DNA of 64,000 nt, taken from Proteobacteria bacterium UBA4457. GTDB lineage: Bacteria > Pseudomonadota > Gammaproteobacteria > Ga0077536. Shown here piece by piece: positions 49,781 through 64,000 of this stretch. Position 1 is the stretch's first letter, and each line of letters starts with the position of its first letter. The stretch is from positions 1,788-65,787 of the forward strand of contig DGOV01000083.1 of assembly GCA_002390205.1 (NCBI GenBank). The letters run 5' to 3'. A model generated the notes under the pieces. It saw only the letters and a program-made list of their open reading frames with translations. It was not told the DNA's origin and made no database searches. Made by a program: the position numbers and the translations under genes.

Positions 49781-50398
49781 CTAACCTAATTCTTTCAGGG
49801 CCTCGATCTTCGTTGTTAATTGCCGAAGGAGACTTTTAATGCCATCTTTTTCCATTATGTAAGAATATTCAGCTTTCTTAAGGGCTAGGTCTGAGACTCC
49901 TTCCGAAATCACATTTACGATAAGCCAGCCTTGTGAATTTTTTCTCAGGAGGTATTTCAGTGAGGTCCTGTCTCCGTTGTCCGATACCAGGGTAGTACTT
50001 AGGGAAAGGGAGTTGTTTCTTGATTTTCGTTCAACAATTACAAATTTCTGACCGGAGTAGTTTGAAAAGTGATGCGCGTAGGTTGATATGCTGAGCGATC
50101 GCATGACGCTCACGAACTCCTGTTGATCCTCATGGGACAGTACTCCCCATTTTTCCCCGAGGACTACTTTACTGATTAGTGGAAAGTTAAAACTTTCACT
50201 CACAACGTTTCTGATTATGTCTATTCGGCCGGCATGGCCCAAGCTCTTTTCAGATTTCATTGCTGTTAGAAGCACTTCGTGCAAATTGACGACTATTTCC
50301 TCGCCCCCGAGCGAGCGATCTCCTCCCCAACCAGGAGCACTAAATAGGCACAGAATAGAAAAAATTATGGTTGTTCGATAGAAATTGGCTTTACCCAT
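49781..50398 (-). CDS. hpnM: MlaC/Ttg2D-family periplasmic lipid carrier (HpnM-like)
   Basis: Signal peptide, VLGEKW, YAHHFSNYSG, W.IVNVISEGVSDLALKKAEY; in the hopanoid cluster. Confidence 0.82.
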   Translation of the reverse strand: MGKANFYRTTIIFSILCLFSAPGWGGDRSLGGEEIVVNLHEVLLTAMKSEKSLGHAGRIDIIRNVVSESFNFPLISKVVLGEKWGVLSHEDQQEFVSVMRSLSISTYAHHFSNYSGQKFVIVERKSRNNSLSLSTTLVSDNGDRTSLKYLLRKNSQGWLIVNVISEGVSDLALKKAEYSYIMEKDGIKSLLRQLTTKIEALKELG

Positions 50399-50422
50399 AT
50401 GGCATCCTGATTAGAATATTTA

Positions 50423-51538
50423 TTAATTCACTTTACGGTACGTTCTATTTTTCCAACGTGTCCGTTCACCACGCCAGTAGCGAATGGCGGAAGTCCACGT
50501 CATAGCTAAGAACAGCGAACTAGCAAACGGTAAAGAGAAAACCCAGAAAGATGAGCATCGGTAATGTCTTATAGTGGGCAAGTATGCGAGACACATCACT
50601 ATCAGACTTATTGCGGACAATAGTCGAACATAGCTATTATCGGATAGAATTCCAGCCAACGGCGTTAGAAAAGTGATCACCAAGAGTGCAGAGCAGAGTA
50701 GAAGCAAAGGTAGTGAATATTTTAGTTGTGTGAATGCAGTTCTCGCGACCATGTTCCATATGTTGGATAAAGTGCCATAAGGGCGAATAGCCTCAACATC
50801 GTGGCTGAGTCCGATCCACGTCCGGCCTCCTGCTTTTTTAATCAGTTTTGCAAGTGTGCAATCATCAATGATCGCATCGTGTAGTGCTGTAAAACCTCCT
50901 ATATCGTCCAACTTTGATGCCTTTATTAGAATGCAGCCGCCAGCTGCACCCGCAATCTTGGAGTTTGGATCATTACTTAATGCAAAAGGATAGATAAGTT
51001 TGAAAAAAAAGATAAAAGCGGGAAGCAAAAGTTTTTCCCATAGGTTCGCTATGGGTAACATAGCCATTATGGAGACAAGGTCTAAGTTCTTTTTTTGTTG
51101 AAGCCGGAAGAGGTCTGTTAGAGCTTGGGGAGCGAGCCTTATATCAGCATCCAGCAAAAGCAAATAAGGTGTTGAGATCTTCTTCCTACCCTGCTCTAAG
51201 GCCCAGAGCTTTCCTGTCCAGCCTGGAGGGGGAGGTTGACCTTCTACCAAACTAAGATTTTTTATATTGAGGTTTGTAACGGCGCTCGCTGTCTCATCCG
51301 TACTTTGATCATCTATCACAACGATCCCGCCCAGAGAGCCTTGCGACGCTAAAGCCAAAATAGTTTCTACTATGCATTCTGCCTCATCTCTTGCAGGTAT
51401 CAACGCAGTAATATGGGCGAGGGAAGGAGTACTTTTATCAACTCTTTCTAATTTCTCGCTCGTAGACCATGGGCGCCAAGGCAAGCACAATAGCGTTAGC
51501 CAAAGTATTACCGAAATTGAGGAAAGAGCTATTAGCAT
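50423..51538 (-). CDS. hpnB: Hopene-associated GT2 glycosyltransferase HpnB
   Basis: IPARDEA, DDQSTD, PPGWTGKLWAL, LDAD, AGAAGGCIL, IIDDCTLA, WNMVARTAFTQL. Confidence 0.85.
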   Translation of the reverse strand: MLIALSSISVILWLTLLCLPWRPWSTSEKLERVDKSTPSLAHITALIPARDEAECIVETILALASQGSLGGIVVIDDQSTDETASAVTNLNIKNLSLVEGQPPPPGWTGKLWALEQGRKKISTPYLLLLDADIRLAPQALTDLFRLQQKKNLDLVSIMAMLPIANLWEKLLLPAFIFFFKLIYPFALSNDPNSKIAGAAGGCILIKASKLDDIGGFTALHDAIIDDCTLAKLIKKAGGRTWIGLSHDVEAIRPYGTLSNIWNMVARTAFTQLKYSLPLLLLCSALLVITFLTPLAGILSDNSYVRLLSAISLIVMCLAYLPTIRHYRCSSFWVFSLPFASSLFLAMTWTSAIRYWRGERTRWKNRTYRKVN

Positions 51539-51589
51539 AGGAGTCTATACCTCCGGGTGTCGCGGCGGCGTCTAGAACGGAAGCTTTTG

Positions 51590-52726
51590 TTAAGCGACTT
51601 CTCTTTTTTCCGTACCAGCTTTTTCTATAGTATTTCCCATTGGGATAATAGTCTGAGACTCAGCTTCAGGCTCTTCTTCATAGTAGAATGGCACCTCTGG
51701 TGCAAGATCTCCTTGAGTCTTTGGACCAGCTAAAAATACTTTCAGTGCCTTAAGCGGGTTGTTAAACGTATCGTCAACCGCAGTCGCTTCATATCCGCAA
51801 TGAACCATGCAGTCAGCGCACTTTGGATTAACGCCAGTCCCGTATTTATCCCACTCGGTATCGTTTAACAACTCATCGAATGTGGACGCGTAGCCTTCTC
51901 CTACGAGCAGGTAACACGGTTTCTGCCACCCAAAAACATTCCGAGTGGGGTTCCCCCAAGGGGTACAGTGATAGGTCTGGTTTCCGGCCAAAAAATCTAA
52001 ATATAAGGTAGATTGATTAAAGCGCCATTTTTTGCCCTTGCCCGCTTTAAATATATCTCTAAACAGATTTTTACTCGCTGATTTTTTAAGAAAGACGTCT
52101 TGCTTTGGGGCTCTTTCATAGGAATAGCCGGGAGATATGGTGACGCCTTCTACGCCAAGAGCCATCATTTCGTCCATAAAGTCACTTACTTCATCTGGTG
52201 TTTCACCTTGGAACAACGTGCAGTTCACAGTGACGCGAAAGCCTCGTTGAAGTGCTTTTTGAATGACGCTTACGCACTTATCATATACGCCTTTTCGGCA
52301 TACAGACGCATCATGTCGTTCTCGACCTCCGTCCAAATGTATAGAAAATGTAAGGTATTTTGACGGCTCATACGAATCCATGTGCTTATCAAGAAGAATG
52401 GCGTTAGTACACAAATAAACAAATTTCTTTCGATCGAGATATCCTTGCACTATCTGCCGCATTTCTTTGTGTATGAGAGGTTCTCCACCTGCAATAGAGA
52501 CCATTGGTGCTCCGCACTCATCGATGGCTTCCATACATTTTTCATAGCTCAGGCGCTTGTTAAGTATGTCAGACGGATAGTCTATTTTTCCACAACCAGA
52601 ACAAGCTAGATTACAACGGAATAATGGCTCTAGCATTAAGACGAGTGGATACCTCTTAACGCGTTTCAGTTTTTGGCTGAGAATATATCGACCTACTCGA
52701 TATTGCTGGATTAGTGGGACACCCAT
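51590..52726 (-). CDS. hpnH: Radical SAM adenosylhopane synthase HpnH
   Basis: YPLVLMLEPLFRCNLACSGCGKI (CX3CX2C), CTPWGNPT, WQKPCYL, KCADCMVHCGYE. Confidence 0.95.
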   Translation of the reverse strand: MGVPLIQQYRVGRYILSQKLKRVKRYPLVLMLEPLFRCNLACSGCGKIDYPSDILNKRLSYEKCMEAIDECGAPMVSIAGGEPLIHKEMRQIVQGYLDRKKFVYLCTNAILLDKHMDSYEPSKYLTFSIHLDGGRERHDASVCRKGVYDKCVSVIQKALQRGFRVTVNCTLFQGETPDEVSDFMDEMMALGVEGVTISPGYSYERAPKQDVFLKKSASKNLFRDIFKAGKGKKWRFNQSTLYLDFLAGNQTYHCTPWGNPTRNVFGWQKPCYLLVGEGYASTFDELLNDTEWDKYGTGVNPKCADCMVHCGYEATAVDDTFNNPLKALKVFLAGPKTQGDLAPEVPFYYEEEPEAESQTIIPMGNTIEKAGTEKREVA

Positions 52727-52958
52727 GCGATTTTCCTAGTTTTGAGGAGAAATTGTATATGATTATTATATATTTACGACGTATTTTATATATATTACTA
52801 ACAGTACTGTAATAGAGCGTGAAAGTACAGCTTTGTTGCAGGGGAAAAGTGTTAAAATACTTTCAGAGAGAAAGAAGGTTAGCTTGCAACCAAGCGGTCT
52901 GCTCTCCATAATTCACACCCTAGGGTAATTGCTGGCAAATTGTGAGAAAAATAAGAAT

Positions 52959-54815
52959 ATGACGAATGGAAAGAAATACTCGCTACTCGACGAAATAGAT
53001 AGTCCAAAGAGTATGAGAAAGTTATCGGAGGATCAGTTAAGTGATTTGGCCTCCGAAGTTAGAGAGTTCCTTTTGAATAGTGTTAGCCAGGTCGGTGGTC
53101 ATTTTGCTTCAGGTTTAGGAACTGTAGAACTTACCATCGCACTTCATTATTTGTTTAACACGCCAGAAGATCGGATAGTCTGGGATGTAGGGCATCAAGC
53201 TTATCCGCACAAAATTTTGACAGGGCGAAAAGATCGACTGCACACCATCCGGCAGCACGAAGGGCTTGCACCGTTTCCGAAGAGAGATGAGAGCCCATAC
53301 GATACTTTTGGAGTTGGTCACTCTAGCACTTCTATAAGTGCTGCCCTAGGGATGGCTATAGCTGCAGAGCATGACGGCTCCGGTCGGCGTGCGGTAGCTG
53401 TTATCGGGGATGGAGCGATGACGGCCGGAGTAGCTTTTGAGGCAATGAATCATGCCGGAGATCTTGGTACTGATTTACTTGTTGTTTTGAACGACAACAA
53501 CATGTCTATTTCTCCAAATGTGGGAGCACTTTCTAACAGGTTTGCGCAAATACTATCTGGAAAACTTTATACCAGTGTGCGAGAAGGAAGTAAGAAAATG
53601 TTGGCTCAGATGCCGTCCGTCTGGGAATTGGCTAGGCGGGCTGAGGAGCATGTCAAAGGTTTGATTGTCCCTGGAACGCTATTTGAAGAGTTTGGTTTTA
53701 ATTATATCGGCCCTATAGATGGACATGATTTGCCCACTTTACTCTCTACTCTGAAAAATATTAAAAATCTTTCAGGGCCTCAATTGCTGCATGTAATAAC
53801 AAAGAAAGGTAAAGGTTATGCTCCTGCGGAGTCTGATCCGATTAAATATCATGGTGTTTCCCCCTTCGATCCAGAGGTCGGGATAAAGAAATCTACTGTT
53901 AAAAAAGCTCCAAACTATAGCGATGTCTTTGGCGATTGGATCTGTGATATGGCAGATCAGGATAGGAGACTAGTAGCTATTACTCCTGCGATGAGAGAAG
54001 GCTCAGGTCTCGTCCGTTTTGAAAAAGAATTTCCAAAGAGATACTTCGATGTAGCGATAGCAGAACAGCACAGTATAAATGTAGCCGCAGGTATGGCCTG
54101 TGATGGTGTTAAACCCGTAGTGGCCATTTACTCAACCTTTTTGCAGAGAGGTTACGACCAAGTAGTGCATGACGTTTGTAATCAGAACCTTCCTGTTCTT
54201 TTTGCCCTAGACCGTGCCGGATTAGTTGGTGCAGATGGACCAACACATAATGGGTGTTATGACTTATCTATTTTGCGGTGCTTGCCAAATATGACGATTA
54301 TGGCGCCGTCTGATGAGAATGAGTGCAGACAAATGTTGTACACGGGGTTTATGATGGATAGTCCAGTGGCTGTTCGCTATCCCCGAGGAACTGGTCCTGG
54401 CGCAGAAGTAGAGCAACAGATGACAGCAATACCCCTAGGAAAAGCCAGCTTAAAGCGGAAAGGGGCTAAAGTTGCTTTGTTAAGTTTTGGCACGACGTTA
54501 CAGATCGCGTTGAACGTGGGCGAACGTTTAGACGCTACAGTCGTTAACATGCGTTATGTTAAGCCGCTCGATATGGATATGATCATAGAAATGGCTGGTT
54601 CTCATGACATCCTCGTAACAATAGAAGAAAATATGGTTGCTGGTGGCGCCGGTAGTGCCGTTAATGAAGTTTTAGCCTTACATGGTAGGCACTTGAAGAT
54701 TTTAAACTATGGGTTACCAGACAGGCTTATTGAGCATGGATCACGAGATGACATGCTCTTGGATGCGGGCTTGACCGAGGAAGGTTTTGAGGCATTTGTA
54801 AAAGCGAGGTTGTGA
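52959..54815 (+). CDS. dxs: 1-deoxy-D-xylulose-5-phosphate synthase
   Basis: [46 protein letters not shown]. Start moved to the ATG at 52959. Confidence 0.98.
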
Positions 54816-55940: not shown

Positions 55941-57080
55941 CTATCCAATATGGCTTTTGAGACGGACTAAAACATCTGATGGAGCTATTGTAGGCCGAGG
56001 TAGATCTTTTGGCACCCCAGTTTGGATTTTCATATGCATGAACCGAGCGCCGCTATGGCTGGGCTCAGCTAGGAAGTCGTGTAAAACTTCTAATTTATTG
56101 CTGCGCCAGACATTAGAGTAACCACAGGCAACAGCTATTCCATCAAACTGGGTATCTTTAGAAACAGTCGCTTGGCCACCAGTAGAGTCATGCGCTTCGT
56201 TGTCTAGTAACAAATGAGAAAAGTTAGGTGGATTGTATGCCCCTGCGGTTGCAAGATTACCCAGTCGCATTAGGGCGGCCCCATCACCGTCTATGACTAG
56301 TACTTTTAAATCAGGCCGACTAAGCGCTAATCCTAGACCAAGCGAGGAAGCGCACCCCATAGATCCGACCATATAGAAATAATTAGGGAGATCGGCGATA
56401 GAGTAAAGCTCGCGGCCGGTATATCCGGTAGTGGCTATGACGACGGTATTCGTTTGTTGAGTGGTCTTTACTACCGATTGTAAAACTTGGTTTCTCGTTA
56501 GTGCAGTAACGTCAATATTTTCATCACTCTGGTAAAAAGTATTTTGTTTCTTGTTTGGGAGTTGATTTTTTAGATTAAAGTTCGCCACCGATCCTTTTTG
56601 CATAATCAAAGAGTAGGATTCACGTTTTTCTTCTATGCTTTGCGAGATGTTGGCTAGGGTTGAATTAATTTCCTGAGTTGCTCGGGGGAAACTCTCATAG
56701 CCTATGCCAATACAATCGAATAACTCTTTTGTGATATTGCCCATCAGTTCATGTTGTGGTTCGTCCTTTAGGCCAGGTTCACCTCGATGAGTGCAGATTA
56801 CCAAGACGGGGATCTTAAAAGTATGTATGAGAGAAGTGAGCGGGCTAATAGCATTACCGAGCCCTGAGTTTTGCATTAGGGCAACACTTTTTTTTCCACC
56901 TATAGAAGCACCTGCTGCTATAGCTATTGCATCGCCTTCATTCGCGGCTGAAACATAATTGAGCGAACTTGCGCTGATTACATAGTTTATTAGTGGGGTT
57001 AAAAAAGAGCATGGCACTCCTGCGTACCAATCATACCCTTGATTTTTTAGCGGCAATATAAACTCTTCTGCTCGTATCAC
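55941..57080 (-). CDS. aepY: Phosphonopyruvate decarboxylase
   Basis: GVPCSFL, NEGDAIA, MQNSGLGN, RGEPG..DEPQH, VGSMG, DGDGAALMR, HDSTGGQ. Confidence 0.95.
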   Translation of the reverse strand: MIRAEEFILPLKNQGYDWYAGVPCSFLTPLINYVISASSLNYVSAANEGDAIAIAAGASIGGKKSVALMQNSGLGNAISPLTSLIHTFKIPVLVICTHRGEPGLKDEPQHELMGNITKELFDCIGIGYESFPRATQEINSTLANISQSIEEKRESYSLIMQKGSVANFNLKNQLPNKKQNTFYQSDENIDVTALTRNQVLQSVVKTTQQTNTVVIATTGYTGRELYSIADLPNYFYMVGSMGCASSLGLGLALSRPDLKVLVIDGDGAALMRLGNLATAGAYNPPNFSHLLLDNEAHDSTGGQATVSKDTQFDGIAVACGYSNVWRSNKLEVLHDFLAEPSHSGARFMHMKIQTGVPKDLPRPTIAPSDVLVRLKSHIG

Positions 57081-57091
57081 GTATTAGGGCC

Positions 57092-58738
57092 TTATTTTGC
57101 GTGGTTTGCGGCAAATTCGCTAGCACGCTCGAGGTCATGCAAGGAATTCACATTTATCCAGTGACCATGAATGTATATCACACGAATGGGACGACCATTT
57201 AATACAAGCTTGTTTAACAAATCTTTCATATCAAACGAAGGAAATTTATTGTTTTCTGACAGCTGATCTAAAGCTTCTTCTATCCATTTCCTGCCTTCTC
57301 CATGGACTCGCATCATGCCGATCCAGCGTCCATCGGAGCTTGAATTCTCTGTATAAGACTGATCACTGATCTGCTGGAGAAGAATGTCTTGGCCCCATAA
57401 AGACCGGTCATCTGGTCCGCTACAATAGGCATAATCTGGAGTCTCATTTGTAGATGATTCCAGCATTTGGGAGTCTACAATGACAGTTATTTCACGATCA
57501 GACTCTACAAGACTTCTGAGTACATACCCTCGGAACAAGACATCACCATACATAAGCACCATATCATCGGAGAAACTCTTTTTTGCGCATAATAGAGATG
57601 TCAACTCTCCAGTTGTCGCGTGCAAATCATTGACAATCAGTTCTATTTTTTTAGAAGGGATAGTTTCATGTTTGTAGCCACCCACTACAGCAAGATTGTC
57701 TACCCCATGTTTCTTGAATTGATCTATAAGTCTGCCGAGTAAAGGCTTGCCGTTAACGGGTAACATTACTTTTGGTCGGTCTGCAGTCAGATTTTCCAAA
57801 CCAGAACCTTGTGCGGCAGCGAGTAGGATGGCTTTTAAGTCTCTTTTTGTGCCTAAGAAATACTGTTTTTCTGCTGCTTGCAACTCGTCAGCCCCTTGCA
57901 AGCGAAAAATTTCTTTTACAGTCGCGATGTTGTCTTCTACCTCAACTAAATTTTCTTTCAACTGAATTTTTCTTGCAGTATCTTGCATTGCGGTTACTGA
58001 GCTTCTAATTAAATGGTTGGCCCAAATCACAAGATTTATCTTCGCGTCTCGAAAGACTTTCGTGGGGGTGCTGTAGTACTTTGTAGGGACTATTACAAGC
58101 GGAGCTCTGCCGGCCCATTCGTGAGCAAATTCGATGATTTGATCTGCTTCAGAGTGAGCGCTATGAATTAATATTGCATCGGCTCCTGCCTTTCTATAGG
58201 CCTCAGCTCTTCGCAGTGCTTCTGCTGTATTCCAACCTGCAATATATGCCTCGACGCGGGCTACAATACAAAAATCATCGTCTGTTTGCGAATCTTTTCC
58301 TGCGGCAATTTTCCCACAAAATTCATCTATATTTGCTAGCTCTTGTCTCTCTCCTGAAATAAAGCTATTTGTCTTAGGGAATAATTTATCTTCTATGCAT
58401 ACACCAGATACTCCACGTTGTTCCAGCTTTCGAACTAGACGACGCATATTGTTGAAATTTCCATACCCGGTGTCGCCATCCAAAAGAATTGGGATATTGC
58501 AGGCGTCGACCATAAATTCGACCATATCGACCACCTGAGTCCAACTGGCTTCGTTGTTATCTCTAACGCCGTATTGAGCCGATAAGGCAAGGCCACTGGC
58601 CCATATTCCACGAAAGCCTGCTTCTTCTGCGATTCGTGCGCTTATTCCATTGTGTGCTTCTAAAATGAATTCGAGGTTGTCCGAGAGCAGGAGAGCTTTC
58701 AGCTTTGAGGTATTTGTTTTTTGTTGATTAAGTGACAT
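57092..58738 (-). CDS. aepX: Phosphoenolpyruvate mutase fused to a C-terminal nucleotidyltransferase domain
   Basis: PepM-diagnostic EDKX5NS motif ([10 protein letters not shown]), DGDTGYG, EAHNG. C-terminal [10 protein letters not shown] / RPKVML / YGD domain. Confidence 0.96.
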
Positions 58739-59471
58739 TTATTTTAGGCAATATTTCATGTGAAGCTCGCTCAATATCCTCGGGGTAATCTATTTCTATC
58801 CAAGGGAGTCCGGTTATGTCCTCCACTCCTATATTATAGTCTGTATTTATCGCAAGTTCTCGCAGCGCTTCTTCATGCGGTTGAGATTCCATACCAGCTT
58901 CAATAAATCCAGCGATAATTTCTTTCAGTCTTACCGCAGTACTTGCGCAAAATTTGAAGAAACCGACTGACTCTCCGATTCGGTCATATACCAGGCTAGG
59001 GTCTATTTTTTTTCTGAATTCCACAATTTTCTCATTCTCTATGCATATTTTTACGGGCTCATCTCCGTCTATGTAATGACGGTCAATTAAGAAGCAATCT
59101 TTAGAAGGGCTGTGGATTAGCCGAGATAATATCTCAGGATGATATAAGACATCAGCATCCATAACTAAAACATCACTGGTACTATCGCACAAAACATCTC
59201 GCATACTCCAAAGACTAACAATCGATCCCAAATTGTATAAAGGGTTGTGCTTATGAGATATATCCGTCAACCCTTTTTGCTGAAGCCTTTCGAGTACGGC
59301 GGGTGCCTCGTGTCCAAGGCAGAGATTGATGTCAGTTACTCCTAGTTTCCTAAGTACCCGAATGTGTCTTTCAAGAAGAGACGTACCGTCAAATTCTAGG
59401 AGGCACTTTGCAGTCGCATGCGCAGAGCTAATGCGATTCCCAACTCCTGCGGCCAGTATTATAGCCTTCAC
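58728..59471 (-). CDS. Phosphocholine/phosphonate cytidylyltransferase (LicC/PntC-like)
   Basis: [43 protein letters not shown]; overlaps aepX. Confidence 0.88.
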
Positions 59472-60220
59472 TGTGCCTTCTTAAGTAGGCGCGCCAGAGT
59501 GTTGCCAACGCCAAAATATGCGAATGCGTCTTTCAGCTGTCCGTAGAAATGTCCAAAGTTTGAAATACTCGTATCCGTAAGGTACTCAAGCGTCAATACG
59601 GTACGCTTATCTCGCGGTTTGGCGGGTGTAACTCGATGTCGAATATTATCGCCATTAAAAAAAACGAGAGAACCGGGTGAAATTTTCGTGCTATGCATTA
59701 CAGTTTCCTTACAATCGTCTTTGCTGAACAGCTCGTATTCGAGCGCACAGCAAGATTCGTCTACGATGCCTATCAGACAGGTATATCGAGAACCTCTATA
59801 GTATGATTTGTCGTAATGAAATCCAATGTGGTCCCCTTCTCGGGCGTAGGAATATAGAGCATAGGCATGAGGATCGTTCTCAGGGCAGTATATGAGTGAT
59901 TTGCCGACTACAGAACTTAAGAAGCTCCTGAGCGAAGCTGAAGTGTAGATAGAGCTGAATATTGGGGCATTCAGATCCAGATCAAATCTCGAGATGCTAC
60001 CACCTTTTTTGTGTTTAGGTATAAAACTCCTGTGAATATATGGTTCGAGTTGAGGTAGAATCTTTTGTATGGAGCAAAGAAGAGAGTCAGGTAAAAAATT
60101 GTCTATTTGCATAAACTCGTCGTTTGTTCGAAATTCAGTCTGTGAGCTGTTGGCTTTTATACTACTCAATTGATTTAAAGGGTCGATTTCGGCAGCCGAT
60201 TTGTAATTAGCGATACTCAT
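59468..60220 (-). CDS. 2OG-Fe(II) oxygenase (H-x-D...H facial triad)
   Basis: GDHIGFHYD, G.LVFFNG..IRHRVTP, KRTVL; first gene of the phosphonate operon. Confidence 0.82.
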   Translation of the reverse strand: MSIANYKSAAEIDPLNQLSSIKANSSQTEFRTNDEFMQIDNFLPDSLLCSIQKILPQLEPYIHRSFIPKHKKGGSISRFDLDLNAPIFSSIYTSASLRSFLSSVVGKSLIYCPENDPHAYALYSYAREGDHIGFHYDKSYYRGSRYTCLIGIVDESCCALEYELFSKDDCKETVMHSTKISPGSLVFFNGDNIRHRVTPAKPRDKRTVLTLEYLTDTSISNFGHFYGQLKDAFAYFGVGNTLARLLKKAQ

Positions 60221-60359: not shown

Positions 60360-61382
60360 TTGGCTAATAAAATGTCAAAAATCATTAAGTTTCTATTTTT
60401 ATTATTAGGTATCGGGTTGCTGGTAACGGTTACTTACCAGACTGACTTGGCCCAATTAGCGCAGCACATTTCCGCTATTGGGTTCTTTGGGGTTGCTTTA
60501 ATTCTTATCGTTTATAGTCTTTACTTCGGGGCCGATGTTCTGAGTTGGCAAATCACTATGCCGAAAATTCCGCTGACAATCCTTTGGTTTGGTCGTCTCT
60601 ATGTAGTCCGGATGATCGGTGAAGCCTATAATAACCTTACGCCAACTGCCTCTTTAGGAGGAGAACCCATTAAGGCGTGGTTGTTGAAATCGAATTGGGC
60701 GATTCCCATTAGAGATTCGGCCTCCTCGTTAGTTATTGCGAAAACAGCAAGTATGTTCTCGTTATCTATTTTTGGTTGCGTGGGTGTCATCTTTCTTTTT
60801 CAAAGTTCTGCATTTGCTGGGGAGGAGAAAAATATTGCGCTAGGCGGATTGATTTTTATAATATTTTCCTCCATTGTTTTTTTTATGATGCAGTATTTTC
60901 GTTTTTCGTCATATGTAGTGGGTAAAATTTCAAGTAATCGATTTGCTGGATTATTACAAAAAGCTTTTAGTACAGTAGAAGATATAGACAAAAAGTTTGA
61001 TGTTTTCTATCGGGAACATGGTTTGCGTTTCGGTGTCGCTTGCTTGGCGGCTATGGCTAATTGGTTGATTGGCATTGTTGAGGTTTTTGTGGTTTTGCAT
61101 CTTATTGGCTATCCATTATCCCTGGCGGAGGTTTTTATTATAGAGAGCCTTGTCCAATTAGTCCGCACGATTACATTTTTCATACCGGCAGGGCTGGGCA
61201 CTCAAGAAGGAACATTTTTTATTGTCGTAGGTGCCCTTACTGGGGTGTCTTCTGCAGGTTTGGCAGTGGCTCTCATCAGACGGTTTAGAGAGTTGATTTG
61301 GTTGGCAGTAAGTTTTTTATTAGCGATATTTTACTCAGTCAGGCCGAGTACAATCTCAAAATTAGATCTTGAAGAGCTATAG
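60360..61382 (+). CDS. HpnL-like / lysylphosphatidylglycerol-synthase-TM flippase-like membrane protein
   Basis: IGEAYNNLTPTASLGGEPIKA, FFIPAGLGTQEG, IRRFRELIW; many TM segments. Confidence 0.8.
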   Translation: MANKMSKIIKFLFLLLGIGLLVTVTYQTDLAQLAQHISAIGFFGVALILIVYSLYFGADVLSWQITMPKIPLTILWFGRLYVVRMIGEAYNNLTPTASLGGEPIKAWLLKSNWAIPIRDSASSLVIAKTASMFSLSIFGCVGVIFLFQSSAFAGEEKNIALGGLIFIIFSSIVFFMMQYFRFSSYVVGKISSNRFAGLLQKAFSTVEDIDKKFDVFYREHGLRFGVACLAAMANWLIGIVEVFVVLHLIGYPLSLAEVFIIESLVQLVRTITFFIPAGLGTQEGTFFIVVGALTGVSSAGLAVALIRRFRELIWLAVSFLLAIFYSVRPSTISKLDLEEL

Positions 61383-61391
61383 TTCTTTCGT

Positions 61392-62384
61392 TCAACCTAT
61401 CATTTTCATTTTTCGGAACCACTCTAATGAGTCATGAATGGCTATTTTTGCAGGGCGCGCACTATAGCCAAGTTCCTTAGAGGCTCGTGCCGATGAAAAG
61501 AACATTTTATGTGCAGCCATCCTTAACCCATCAACTGTGGCTTGCGGTTCCGGACCATTAGTTAGGCCGGCCCAAATCTCGGAGGCAAATGCAATGGGGT
61601 AGACAACCGCTCTAGGGATTCTTAGTCGAGGGGGGGGATGGTTACAGTATGCTGCAACGATATCGAGGATCTCTTTTAGAGTTTGGTTTTCGCCACCAAG
61701 AATATACCTTCGTCCAATTTGGCCTTTATCGTAAGCCAGCAAATGCCCTTTTGCTACATCATCTACATGAGCGACATTAAGTCCCGTATCAATGTATGCA
61801 GGCATATGACGATTAGCGGCATCTCGTATGATTCTTCCTGTAGGAGTCGGTTTAGGATCACGCGGTCCGATCGGTGTAGATGGATTCACAATGACAGCAG
61901 GTAGATTTTCTTCCACTACAAGACGATCGACAACTTTTTCAGCTAAAAATTTTGAACGTTTGTAGTGACCAATCATGTCCTTAAGATTTGAGGGCGTATC
62001 TTCGCAAGATGAATTTTCATCATCCGTTAGGCCAATAGTTGCGACACTGCTGGTATAAATGATTTTACTAACTCCTGCTCGCATTGCGGCACGCATAATG
62101 TTTTCTGTTCCTGCTACGTTATTAGCATACAGTTCATCGTGATTTTTAACCCACAACCTATAGTCGGCTGCGACATGATAGAGAGTATCGCATCCTCGTA
62201 ACGCGCGTTCTAGCGAGCCACTATCTTGGAGATCTCCGTTCACAACTGGAACATCTAGATCAGAGATTGTTCGGGTATCACTCGAGATCCGCTTGAGTAT
62301 CTTTAAAGAGACCCCTTGACTTAAGAGAGCTCTCGCTACTGCATTTCCGAGGAAGCCGGTTGCACCAGTTACAAGAGTCGTCAT
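61392..62384 (-). CDS. hpnA: Hopanoid-associated sugar epimerase/dehydratase HpnA
   Basis: VTGATGFLG, HVAADYRLW, YKRSK, VNPSTPIGPRD.KPTPTG, YILGGEN. Start moved to the ATG at 62384. Confidence 0.92.
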   Translation of the reverse strand: MTTLVTGATGFLGNAVARALLSQGVSLKILKRISSDTRTISDLDVPVVNGDLQDSGSLERALRGCDTLYHVAADYRLWVKNHDELYANNVAGTENIMRAAMRAGVSKIIYTSSVATIGLTDDENSSCEDTPSNLKDMIGHYKRSKFLAEKVVDRLVVEENLPAVIVNPSTPIGPRDPKPTPTGRIIRDAANRHMPAYIDTGLNVAHVDDVAKGHLLAYDKGQIGRRYILGGENQTLKEILDIVAAYCNHPPPRLRIPRAVVYPIAFASEIWAGLTNGPEPQATVDGLRMAAHKMFFSSARASKELGYSARPAKIAIHDSLEWFRKMKMIG

Positions 62385-62980
62385 TTTCCTTCGACCATAA
62401 TTTTTCTGTACTGGAGAATGACAAATAGAGCAGCTATAGGAGCTCCTAGACTGGCTAGATATAAAAAGGAATTTAAGCCCTCTAGCAGGGTCACGATCGG
62501 AATTAAATACAGAATATCTTCTGCTTCGAAGCCACCCCAAAGAGGCTGGTGGATTCTCGACTTTCCATGCTTTTCTTCTATTAAGTAGCGTAGGTGAAAG
62601 ATAAGCGCTACTGACACTCCTGAAATTATGCCGGCTTCCAAGGCATAATTAGCTTCTGAGAAAAGGGCAACACCAACTCCTATTCCTACAAACATTGATA
62701 CGGTGACTAAAGCATCTGATGCTAGATCGAAAATATGTCCAAACCGACTTTGTTTATTTGCAAGTCTAGCTAACTCTCCGTCCATATGGTCAATAAAGTT
62801 AGATGAGATTATCAGTAATGCAGCTATATTAGGATAAGCTCCTTTAGCAAAGAGCCATGCGCCTGCAAGTCCTACAATCAGTCTTAGTAGAGTGAAGTGA
62901 TTAGGGTGGATTGTATTAGAGTCTTTAAAAGGGGTTATCATCCAAGCTGCGGCTTTCGCATCCCAAGGTTTATCTCGCAA
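62381..62980 (-). CDS. CDP-alcohol phosphatidyltransferase family protein
   Basis: HPNHFT and the signature DHMDGELAR-X8-G-X3-D-X3-D. TTG start with an AGGAG RBS; overlaps hpnN and hpnA. Confidence 0.9.
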   Translation of the reverse strand: MRDKPWDAKAAAWMITPFKDSNTIHPNHFTLLRLIVGLAGAWLFAKGAYPNIAALLIISSNFIDHMDGELARLANKQSRFGHIFDLASDALVTVSMFVGIGVGVALFSEANYALEAGIISGVSVALIFHLRYLIEEKHGKSRIHQPLWGGFEAEDILYLIPIVTLLEGLNSFLYLASLGAPIAALFVILQYRKIMVEGK

Positions 62981-64000
62981 TTTCGGCGCTCCTTTTTACA
63001 TATCTGCGAAGTAGTAGTGGAAGACATCCTAGCGTACTAATCAAAGTTACTGAAAGGCCTAAGCTGAGCAAAAGACCCATACTTCCTGTGCCCGCATGAG
63101 GTGATATAGCCAAGTTCCCAAAGCTAGCCATGGTAGTTAGAGTGCTTAGAATAACTCCTCTTGCGGTACTGGTTCGCATGAAATTCATCGATAATCCATC
63201 GTGGTTAATATGGCGATGAATAATATGAAGCGTGCTATCAACACCAATGCCCACGATCAACGGGAGAGCAATGATGTTGGCAAAATTAAATGGCAAACCG
63301 ATTAAAACCATAATTGAAGTTGTTGCCACACATGCTAAGAGCATAGGTATAAGAGCGATTACTACGTGAGACGTTCTCTTCAAAGATACCCACAGCACTC
63401 CAATGATAACGAGACAGGCCGTCGCAAATGCTTGAGCGAACGAGGTGAGTACTGAACGACTTGCTTCAAGGCTGACAATAGGGGTGCCAGTAGCGCTATG
63501 GCCAGTAACTTTCCTTACCTCCGATATAAAGCCAGAGATTTTATCATTCGAATCTAATGATTCCTCAGGATTAATTTGTAGTCGGATAAGTCCTTCTTCC
63601 GATACCCATCGACTTTTAAGAGTGACAGGTAAATTCTCAAGGGTAACCATATTTGGAGATAGCCCATCATTTATTTTTTTTATCAGTGGAGAGAAATGGC
63701 GCATAGTCAGAGCATCTAAATTTCTTGCATATGTGACGTTTTGGTTGTGATCGGCAGTACTCAGTTGATTTAATATGTTTTGCAGCTGAGATTTGTAAAG
63801 GAGTGATGCTTTTGAAGGTTCGAACTGTTTGTCAATCGTTTCAATATTGCGAATTAAATTAATTTTGAGAGCTTTAAGATCAAGACTTGGTGCGTCTATG
63901 TCTTTGGTAAGTTGAAATTCCCCTCCGATCACCAGCCCTAGCTCATCGATGACAGCTAGTTTTGAAGCTTGCTTTTGCGGGATGAAAGATGAGATGAAAG
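62970..64000 (-). CDS. hpnN: HpnN-type MMPL/RND hopanoid transporter, C-terminal part (5' end beyond the window)
   Basis: Frame is open to the window edge (SSFIPQKQASKLAVI). ATGTPI, PFNFANIIALPLIVGIGVD, TTMASFGNL, HAGTGSMG. Confidence 0.88.
   Translation of the reverse strand, partial: FISSFIPQKQASKLAVIDELGLVIGGEFQLTKDIDAPSLDLKALKINLIRNIETIDKQFEPSKASLLYKSQLQNILNQLSTADHNQNVTYARNLDALTMRHFSPLIKKINDGLSPNMVTLENLPVTLKSRWVSEEGLIRLQINPEESLDSNDKISGFISEVRKVTGHSATGTPIVSLEASRSVLTSFAQAFATACLVIIGVLWVSLKRTSHVVIALIPMLLACVATTSIMVLIGLPFNFANIIALPLIVGIGVDSTLHIIHRHINHDGLSMNFMRTSTARGVILSTLTTMASFGNLAISPHAGTGSMGLLLSLGLSVTLISTLGCLPLLLRRYVKRSAEIAR

What the first reader, a model, noticed from the sequence alone, without database searches (positions are those of the whole stretch)
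59468..60220. 2OG-Fe(II) oxygenase heading the AEP operon: candidate biosynthetic phosphonate hydroxylase
Seen: H-Y-D...H triad and a distal Arg (KRTV); its stop overlaps the GTG start of the cytidylyltransferase. Established: an Asp in HxD indicates hydroxylase chemistry, whereas halogenases have Gly/Ala there. 1-hydroxy-2-AEP head groups are known in some bacterial phosphonolipids, and PhnY/TmpA are 2OG enzymes that hydroxylate AEP-type substrates in catabolism. Inference: this enzyme makes 1-hydroxy-AEP (free or CMP/lipid-bound) or hydroxylates the lipid acceptor. No PhnZ partner is present, which argues against a catabolic role.
Basis: partly seen in the sequence, partly recalled or inferred. 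Interest (0 to 1): 0.6.

Follow-up and report, generated by a model that had tools for sequence, protein, structure and literature searches.

The report
Phosphonolipid head-group hydroxylase candidate (BesD fold)

Summary
Observation confirmed: intact 250-aa ORF with H135-Y-D137…H195 and R206, overlapping the nucleotidyltransferase start by 4 bp. Its fold is BesD/HalD-type (HalB Z 22.8), not PhnY*-type. Asp137 and Thr210 argue against halogenation.

It is the uncharacterised oxygenase of the published seven-gene 'Group 1 phosphonolipid / Burkholderiales_CDP-OH' cluster, for which 1-hydroxy-AEP synthesis was already proposed. This scan has noted it on other genomes too.

New here:
(1) 79 of 80 close relatives come from genomes with a true pepM, even when unlinked.
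(2) The gene is optional: found in 6 of 21 pepM+shc gammaproteobacteria, 0 of 20 shc-only, and cleanly missing from otherwise intact clusters.
(3) It is fused to, or travels with, the CDP-alcohol phosphotransferase, suggesting a late step.
(4) A membrane-anchored sister clade with the same basic motifs lies away from phosphonate genes, often beside btaA-like betaine-lipid genes, so the motifs are not phosphonate-specific.

Best reading: optional hydroxylation of the AEP head, probably CMP- or lipid-bound (0.55). Rival: hydroxylation of the acceptor, possibly a hopanoid (0.22). No substrate is shown.

The parts
59468..60220 (-). Fe(II)/2OG oxygenase, BesD/HalD fold, 250 aa (the finding)
   Evidence: Pfam HalD E 5.5e-11; model pLDDT 88.7 (19); Foldseek HalD/HalB E about 1e-13 (26); VIA HalB Z 22.8, rmsd 2.6 over 207 aa (27)
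59810..59818 (-). H135-Y-D137 iron-ligand motif (Gly at the Asp position in BesD/HalB/HalD)
59636..59638 (-). H195, distal iron ligand
   Evidence: invariant in 86 homologues; aligns with the halogenases' distal His
59603..59605 (-). R206, predicted 2OG-binding Arg (KRTV)
   Evidence: invariant; aligns with the Arg of the halogenases' TRII/TRTI strand; the role is from established family knowledge
58728..59471 (-). Stand-alone NTP transferase (PntC/LicC-like), GTG start overlapping the oxygenase stop by 4 bp
   Evidence: Pfam NTP_transf_3 over cut-off; junction
57092..58738 (-). aepX: PEP mutase fused to an NTP-transferase domain, motif [10 protein letters not shown]
   Evidence: TIGR02320 over cut-off; motif
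55941..57080 (-). Phosphonopyruvate decarboxylase (aepY/ppd)
   Evidence: TIGR03297 424.8 bits
54830..55948 (-). 2-aminoethylphosphonate aminotransferase (aepZ)
   Evidence: TIGR03301 386 bits
60360..61382 (+). LPG_synthase_TM / HpnL-like membrane protein, divergent from the oxygenase
   Evidence: PF03706 over cut-off; TIGR03476 below cut-off
61392..62384 (-). hpnA, hopanoid-associated epimerase (likely start near 62384; the longest ORF begins at 62540)
   Evidence: TIGR03466 over cut-off from residue 53 of the long ORF
62381..62980 (-). CDP-alcohol phosphotransferase; fused to or paired with the oxygenase in other genomes
   Evidence: PF01066; fusions
62970..64000 (-). 3' part of hpnN (MMPL/RND transporter, 877 aa in the contig); an hpnG-like and a squalene/phytoene-synthase-like gene follow beyond the window
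   Evidence: TIGR03480 partial match; contig tail, the last two labels by resemblance to L112 genes
52929..54815 (+). dxs, convergent with aepZ, closing the operon
   Evidence: TIGR00204 over cut-off
49781..52726 (-). hpnH, hpnB, hpnM (hopanoid side-chain and transport genes)
   Evidence: TIGR03470 and TIGR03481 over cut-off; TIGR03469 378.3 vs cut-off 379.25

Best explanation
A soluble Fe(II)/2-oxoglutarate hydroxylase of the BesD/HalD fold that performs an optional tailoring step in the Group 1 phosphonolipid pathway. AepX, Ppd and AepZ make AEP. An NTP-transferase domain activates it to CMP-AEP, and the CDP-alcohol phosphotransferase moves it onto a lipid alcohol (acceptor unknown, possibly a hopanoid). 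This enzyme uses O2 and 2OG to put an OH on the aminoethylphosphonate unit, most plausibly at C1 to give 1-hydroxy-AEP. It more likely acts late (CMP-AEP or lipid-bound AEP at the cytoplasmic face) than on free AEP. Shown here: gene identity, fold, intact His-Asp-His site, co-occurrence, dispensability and fusion to the transferase. Inferred: hydroxylation as the outcome, the AEP unit as substrate, C1 and the timing.
For: 2-His-1-Asp triad and R206 are invariant; halogenases have Gly/Ala in place of the carboxylate (bioRxiv 2023.05.25.542349). The second halogenase position, HalA N224, is Thr here. 65 of 80 related loci have pepM within 10 kb; 14 of the other 15 genomes have a true pepM elsewhere. 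In an even sample of 300 genomes of the class, the clade was found in 6 of 21 pepM+shc genomes, 0 of 20 shc-only, 0 of 6 pepM-only and none of the rest. It is cleanly absent between hpnA or hpnL and the NTP transferase in G031, G039 and G053 (97-100% complete), so it is not needed to make AEP. It is fused to the CDP-alcohol phosphotransferase in Pandoraea and one Steroidobacteraceae genome. It sits beside that gene, away from pepM, in several Nostoc, a Nitrospinota MAG, L048 and G119. The anion-binding hairpin of HalB (Arg83; bioRxiv 2022.08.04.502814) maps by sequence alignment via HalD to K71 within R64…HKKGGS, and the model has a helical C-terminal lid, which fits a small zwitterionic substrate. 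1-hydroxy-AEP is a real bacterial lipid head group in B. stolpii (PMC8154272).
Against: No biochemical data exist in the papers I could search, and no product of this cluster type has been isolated. R64, K71, K230 and D231 are also kept in a sister clade whose loci hold no pepM, and whose two checked genomes lack pepM and shc, so they do not prove phosphonate binding. Other relatives sit among ACP, ketoacyl-synthase and fatty-acid-hydroxylase genes. A PhnY*-like PhyH dioxygenase, from a family known for C1 hydroxylation, lies in the same cluster as this gene in L040 and beside shc in G054, which also carries this gene; there C1 hydroxylation might be the other enzyme's job. The B. stolpii cluster belongs to a different family and could not be searched. 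One close homologue (Acidobacteriota, L059) is in a genome with only a non-canonical PepM-like gene and no shc.
Confidence: 0.55

Rival explanations
1. The enzyme hydroxylates the lipid acceptor of the phosphonolipid (hopanoid side chain, or an acyl/long-chain base), before or after AEP transfer; the head group stays plain AEP.
For: Fusion and co-travel with the membrane transferase. shc matched in 44 of 50 genomes carrying the clade (40 over cut-off) against 41 of 301 in the class sample. In two Nostoc loci the transferase-oxygenase pair follows genes that look like hpnJ/hpnK/hpnI by their N-termini (not tested with family models). Distant relatives lie in fatty-acid/ACP clusters. The enzymes that make BH-pentols and -hexols are unknown (PMC12583986).
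Against: Found in 0 of 20 shc-positive, pepM-negative genomes (Fisher p 0.02, kin not independent), so it is not a general hopanoid hydroxylase. The fold's solved members bind small amino acids under a lid (PMC10041140). The conserved pocket residues are polar and charged (R64, K71, D116, H118, E212, K230, D231). There is no transmembrane segment (max Kyte-Doolittle 19-mer 1.07).
Confidence: 0.22
2. It acts on the phosphonate unit but with another outcome or site: oxidation of phosphonoacetaldehyde to phosphonoacetate (as FzmG can do), desaturation, or oxidation next to the amine.
For: Fe/2OG enzymes of this fold class include epimerases and cyclases (SnoN, SnoK). A second, PhnY*-like dioxygenase co-occurs in some clusters, implying two different oxidations.
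Against: The nearest relatives with a carboxylate ligand are plain hydroxylases (Hydrox, prolyl hydroxylases). aepZ is retained in most full loci (53 of 80, many cut by contig ends), so flux is to AEP.
Confidence: 0.1
3. Catabolic or salvage enzyme working like PhnY* ahead of PhnZ or PbfA.
For: PhnY* converts AEP to (R)-HAEP in catabolism.
Against: 4-bp overlap with biosynthetic genes; no phnZ over cut-off in the genome; no PhnY model matched; profile comparison with a PhnY*-like protein gave probability 3%; the clade is confined to pepM genomes.
Confidence: 0.04
4. A radical halogenase, as the Pfam and Atlas label 'HalD/BesD family halogenase' suggests.
For: Best sequence and structure matches are HalD, HalB and BesD; automatic names.
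Against: Asp137 fills the halide site in all 86 aligned homologues; Thr at the HalA N224 position; the BesD equivalog model scores 18.8 bits against a cut-off of 450.
Confidence: 0.02

Closest known systems
Putative alpha-ketoglutarate/Fe(II) oxygenase of the 'Group 1 phosphonolipid' (Yu et al. 2013) = 'Burkholderiales_CDP-OH' seven-gene core (Li & Horsman, PMC8942020 / bioRxiv 2021.04.07.438883)
   Same: All seven core gene types are present in the window. The protein is 38-43% identical to the oxygenase in Burkholderia, Cupriavidus and Mycetohabitans clusters and falls in one clade with them. The same 1-hydroxy-AEP role is already proposed.
   Different: Gene order: here the oxygenase starts the operon, the LPG_synthase_TM gene is divergent, hpnA and the CDP-alcohol transferase lie upstream, and the set is embedded among hpnN, hpnH, hpnB, hpnM and dxs. 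The papers I read give no fold assignment, no dispensability and no transferase fusion.
BesD/HalB/HalD amino-acid halogenases and the lysine hydroxylase Hydrox (PF23169)
   Same: Fold (HalB Z 22.8, rmsd 2.6 A over 207 aa; next family Z 19.3), GDxxGxH motif, anion-binding hairpin, helical C-terminal lid.
   Different: Only 12-20% identity. Asp instead of Gly at the halide site; Thr instead of Asn at HalA 224. Lipid-pathway context instead of amino-acid natural-product clusters.
PhnY* (AEP/methylphosphonate 1-hydroxylase, PhyH family) and TmpA
   Same: The proposed chemistry: 2OG-dependent hydroxylation of the carbon next to phosphorus (TmpA from my own knowledge).
   Different: Different protein family: no PhyH or PhnY model matched, and hhalign probability was 3% against a PhnY*-like protein. 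They are catabolic and paired with PhnZ/TmpB.
S-HAEP formation in hydroxyphosphonocystoximate biosynthesis (Streptomyces regensis) and FzmG
   Same: Biosynthetic C1 hydroxylation of a phosphonate is precedented (PMC12366243).
   Different: Small-molecule pathways. FzmG is a PhnY* homologue. I could not obtain the Streptomyces enzyme's sequence to compare.

Membership tests
Fe(II)/2OG hydroxylases (HxD/E…H) | Double-stranded beta-helix fold | tested here: met
   Model pLDDT 88.7; the Foldseek and VIA lists are headed by Fe/2OG oxygenases
Fe(II)/2OG hydroxylases (HxD/E…H) | 2-His-1-carboxylate triad plus 2OG-binding Arg | tested here: met
   H135, D137, H195 and R206 invariant in 86 sequences and aligned with the BesD-family sites
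Fe(II)/2OG hydroxylases (HxD/E…H) | 2OG/O2-coupled hydroxylation of a substrate | not testable with these tools
   Needs an assay
BesD/HalD radical halogenases | Gly/Ala replacing the carboxylate ligand (HxG/A) | tested here: not met
   Asp137 invariant; criterion from bioRxiv 2023.05.25.542349
BesD/HalD radical halogenases | BesD equivalog model NF042920 over cut-off | tested here: not met
   18.8 bits vs 450
BesD/HalD structural family (PF23169) | Pfam HalD over gathering score and nearest fold | tested here: met
   42.8 vs 26 bits; HalB top at Z 22.8
PhnY* (PhyH-family phosphonate hydroxylases) | PhyH / PhnY family sequence match | tested here: not met
   No PF05721 or NF052437 match at E<=0.01, whereas a control PhyH gene matched both; hhalign probability 3%
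PhnY* (PhyH-family phosphonate hydroxylases) | phnZ partner | tested here: not met
   None in the locus; none over cut-off in an 87.7% complete genome
TmpA | Sequence or fold match to TmpA | tested here: inconclusive
   No TmpA sequence was in hand and no direct comparison was made; the fold lists do not exclude unlisted families
Group 1 phosphonolipid / Burkholderiales_CDP-OH cluster | Ppm, Ppd and AEPT | tested here: met
   All over NCBIfam cut-offs
Group 1 phosphonolipid / Burkholderiales_CDP-OH cluster | Two NTP-transferase domains, one fused to Ppm | tested here: met
Group 1 phosphonolipid / Burkholderiales_CDP-OH cluster | 2OG-Fe(II) oxygenase orthologous to the Burkholderiales gene | tested here: met
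   40% identical to the annotated oxygenase in the Mycetohabitans seven-gene cluster; one clade, SH-aLRT 93, quick tree
Group 1 phosphonolipid / Burkholderiales_CDP-OH cluster | CDP-alcohol phosphotransferase and LPG_synthase_TM genes | tested here: met
   62381-62980 and 60360-61382
Group 1 phosphonolipid / Burkholderiales_CDP-OH cluster | A 1-hydroxy-AEP lipid as product | not testable with these tools
   Not isolated for this family

The most novel reading that the evidence does not exclude
The enzyme belongs to an undescribed branch of the BesD fold that hydroxylates zwitterionic head groups already attached to membrane lipids. This clade would convert an AEP-capped hopanoid into a 1-hydroxy-AEP-capped hopanoid, a molecule never reported, while its membrane-anchored sister clade would modify betaine lipids made by BtaA/BtaB-like enzymes.
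Probability: 0.2. Interest if true: 0.75.

Novelty: new member of a known kind. Interest (0 to 1): 0.35.

Why it matters
This cluster family made up 36% of the ppm neighbourhoods in Li & Horsman's survey, yet has no isolated product and, in the papers I could search, no tested oxygenase. Catabolic enzymes for both HAEP enantiomers (PbfA, PbfF) are widespread, while the natural source of HAEP is unclear. If this enzyme makes HAEP, it is a likely main bacterial source, and its stereochemistry would say which route it feeds. It would also be a second, independent protein solution to phosphonate C1 hydroxylation beside PhnY*. It corrects an automatic 'halogenase' label. Natural pairs of clusters with and without the gene make the question directly testable by lipidomics. 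The basic proposal, however, is more than ten years old, so surprise for a specialist is modest.

Tried and rejected
Complex prediction of the oxygenase with the CDP-alcohol phosphotransferase gave no verdict (score 0.00); it is not used as evidence either way.

'PhnY*-like PhyH gene as non-orthologous replacement' was considered after finding it in the oxygenase-less cluster of G053. It was rejected as a rule: it is in 9 of 15 oxygenase-less and 3 of 6 oxygenase-bearing pepM+shc genomes of the class sample, and both genes are in one cluster in L040 and in one genome in G054.

'Basic HKKGG hairpin proves phosphonate binding' was rejected because the pepM-free sister clade keeps it. 'General hopanoid hydroxylase' was rejected because it was found in 0 of 20 shc-only genomes.

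The promoter and terminator scan gave fewer sites than shuffles and none at the operon start. TmpA was not among the listed fold matches, which excludes nothing. The cyanobacterial phylum sample had only 2 of 151 positives and was too thin for a co-occurrence test.

Yu et al. 2013 and Goettge et al. 2018 are not held and are cited second-hand; a search for HpxV found nothing relevant. BesD residue numbers recalled from memory (Arg74, Thr221) could not be confirmed in the papers read, so only HalB Arg83 and HalA N224 are used. B. stolpii could not be reached with the tools. A link between ethenolamine-hopanoids and HAEP breakdown was considered and left as unsupported speculation.

Full report
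1. Observation. The ORF at 59468-60220 (minus strand) encodes 250 aa without internal stops. It carries H135-Y-D137, H195 and K205-R-T-V, and its TGA overlaps the GTG of the next gene by four bases. The following genes are an NTP transferase, aepX (PEP mutase plus NTP-transferase domain), ppd and aepZ; the three AEP genes pass their NCBIfam cut-offs. A convergent dxs closes the run. Around it lie hpnH, hpnB, hpnM, an LPG_synthase_TM gene (divergent), hpnA, a CDP-alcohol phosphotransferase and hpnN. The host is an uncultured gammaproteobacterium (2.17 Mb, 87.7% complete). It has one copy of the gene and no phnZ over cut-off. shc was not found in this assembly but was found in 5 of 6 congeners.

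2. Protein family. Pfam gives HalD over cut-off; NCBIfam gives only a trace of the BesD model. The AlphaFold model (pLDDT 88.7) matches HalD, HalB, HalA, BesD and Hydrox first in Foldseek, and HalB at Z 22.8 in the wide VIA search, ahead of prolyl hydroxylases at about 19. The halide-site Gly of the halogenases is an invariant Asp here, and HalA N224 corresponds to T210, so halogenation is unlikely (criterion). No PhyH or PhnY model matches, and a profile comparison with a PhnY*-like protein gives 3% probability. In HalB a beta-hairpin binds the substrate carboxylate through Arg83, and a C-terminal lid sets selectivity. By sequence alignment through HalD, that Arg corresponds to K71 in the model's 63-76 hairpin, and the model ends in a lid-like helix (221-248) holding invariant K230, D231, Y235, F236 and G237. 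This mapping is inference from alignments at low identity, not a structural superposition.

3. Genomic context of the clade. Of the 80 best loci in GTDB genomes (Gammaproteobacteria, Burkholderiales, Nostoc, Symploca, Nitrospinota, one Acidobacteriota), 65 have pepM, 69 the NTP transferase and 64 the CDP-alcohol transferase within 10 kb (the Dxs hits in that call came from a wrong-strand query and are not used). For the 15 loci without pepM, all 15 genomes gave a PepM-like hit. Fourteen have the canonical motif, and the two divergent Nitrospinota proteins pass the TIGR02320 cut-off. The Acidobacteriota protein lacks the motif and is under cut-off. In an even sample of 300 genomes of the class, pepM was found in 27 and shc in 41, both in 21. 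The oxygenase clade was in 6 of those 21 and in none of the others. One of the six is G078, flagged unpublished; without it the count is 5 of 20. Kin are not independent, so the p-values overstate. The gene is therefore pepM-dependent but optional. G031, G039 and G053 have the rest of the cluster with no gene at this position.

4. Timing. The oxygenase is fused to the CDP-alcohol phosphotransferase in five Pandoraea loci and one Steroidobacteraceae locus, and in many database proteins, several named Pandoraea. Where the cluster is split, the two genes often stay together away from pepM: five Nostoc genomes, L020, L048 and G119, where the pair is 1.3 Mb from pepM. Some copies stand alone (Symploca, Caldora, L059). 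This suggests, but does not show, action at or after the transfer step.

5. Deeper relatives. A profile search of 1.84 billion representatives found 139 proteins at E<=1e-30. A quick tree separates this clade, a sister clade with an N-terminal hydrophobic segment, and several others (support 93, careful search unfinished). None of 82 sister loci holds pepM, the NTP transferase or the CDP-alcohol transferase, though many are short (38 of at least 7 kb). Twelve hold a DUF3419 gene (btaA-like, from my own knowledge), most with a methyltransferase and seven with a metallophosphoesterase, and none of the 80 core loci does. The two sister-bearing genomes checked lack pepM and shc but have DUF3419. 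Two further relatives lie among ACP and fatty-acid-hydroxylase genes, one also with ketoacyl synthases. The sister clade keeps R64, K71, K230 and D231 but has Ser for H118 and Thr for E212. So the wider family is lipid-associated, the basic residues are not phosphonate-specific, and H118 and E212 are the candidates for substrate specificity.

6. Mechanism. Most likely: Fe(IV)=O abstracts H from the carbon next to phosphorus of an AEP unit and rebounds OH, giving a 1-hydroxy-AEP head on the cluster's lipid, probably at the CMP or lipid stage (0.55). Rivals: hydroxylation of the acceptor (0.22), another oxidation of the phosphonate (0.10), catabolism (0.04), halogenation (0.02). The acceptor is unknown. 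shc matched in 44 of 50 genomes carrying the clade, and pepM is strongly enriched among shc genomes of the class (21 of 41 vs 6 of 258), which keeps a hopanoid acceptor open. A PhnY*-like dioxygenase also tracks pepM+shc genomes (12 of 21 vs 0 of 20) and sometimes co-occurs with this gene, which lowers confidence in the exact site.

7. What is known. Li & Horsman describe this seven-gene core, including the oxygenase, as predicted to make 1-hydroxy-substituted phosphonates, with no product characterised. The supplement of PMC5987646 states, citing Yu et al. 2013, that PepM, Ppd, the transaminase and the 2OG-Fe(II) oxygenase form HAEP. The Mycetohabitans cluster confirms orthology. A terpene-phosphonate link has been suggested for Roseomonas (PMC8776678). 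Earlier agents of this scan reached the same cluster assignment and hopanoid link on other genomes; I had the literature assignment before reading their follow-ups.

8. Verdict. Real gene, sound but already published hypothesis, untested enzyme. New member of a known kind; interest 0.35.

Noticed in passing
L112:14407-15165 (-); also L273-L277, L040:2137-2886: A PhnY*-like PhyH dioxygenase (NF052437 E 3e-60, under cut-off) sits inside hopanoid clusters, after an hpnG-like gene (usually next to shc) and before hpnN or hpnA, with no phnZ recognised beside it. Found in 12 of 21 pepM+shc genomes and 0 of 20 shc-only genomes. A good second candidate for biosynthetic C1 hydroxylation.
   Followed up: partly
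L113:8524-9414 (-), L197, L210, L225, L244: Membrane-anchored sister clade of the oxygenase next to DUF3419 (btaA-like), a methyltransferase and a metallophosphoesterase in 12 of 82 loci, without pepM: possible betaine-lipid head-group hydroxylase. L240 and L244 also have a phnW-like gene nearby.
   Followed up: partly
L141:8001-9629 and L142:3037-3771: More distant homologues, one fused to a short-chain dehydrogenase, lie in ACP / radical SAM / fatty-acid hydroxylase clusters, with ketoacyl synthases in L141 and an aminotransferase in L142.
   Followed up: no
class sample: pepM is found in 21 of 41 shc-positive but only 6 of 258 shc-negative gammaproteobacterial genomes.
   Followed up: partly
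window 59468-60220: This copy departs from the family at K138 (usually T) and G227-Q228 (usually S-N) and has a longish branch, while keeping all invariant residues.
   Followed up: no
P0132, P0137, P0283, P0285: Database proteins in which the oxygenase is joined to a phospholipid methyltransferase or a diacylglycerol-kinase domain; not checked for gene-calling artefacts.
   Followed up: no
L124-L129: A further HalD-like group with HFD/HYD motifs in unrelated gene contexts, used only as outgroup.
   Followed up: no
G000 genome: No squalene-hopene cyclase found although hpnH, hpnB, hpnA, hpnM and hpnN are present; probably missing from the 87.7% complete assembly, as 5 of 6 congeners have it.
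   Followed up: partly
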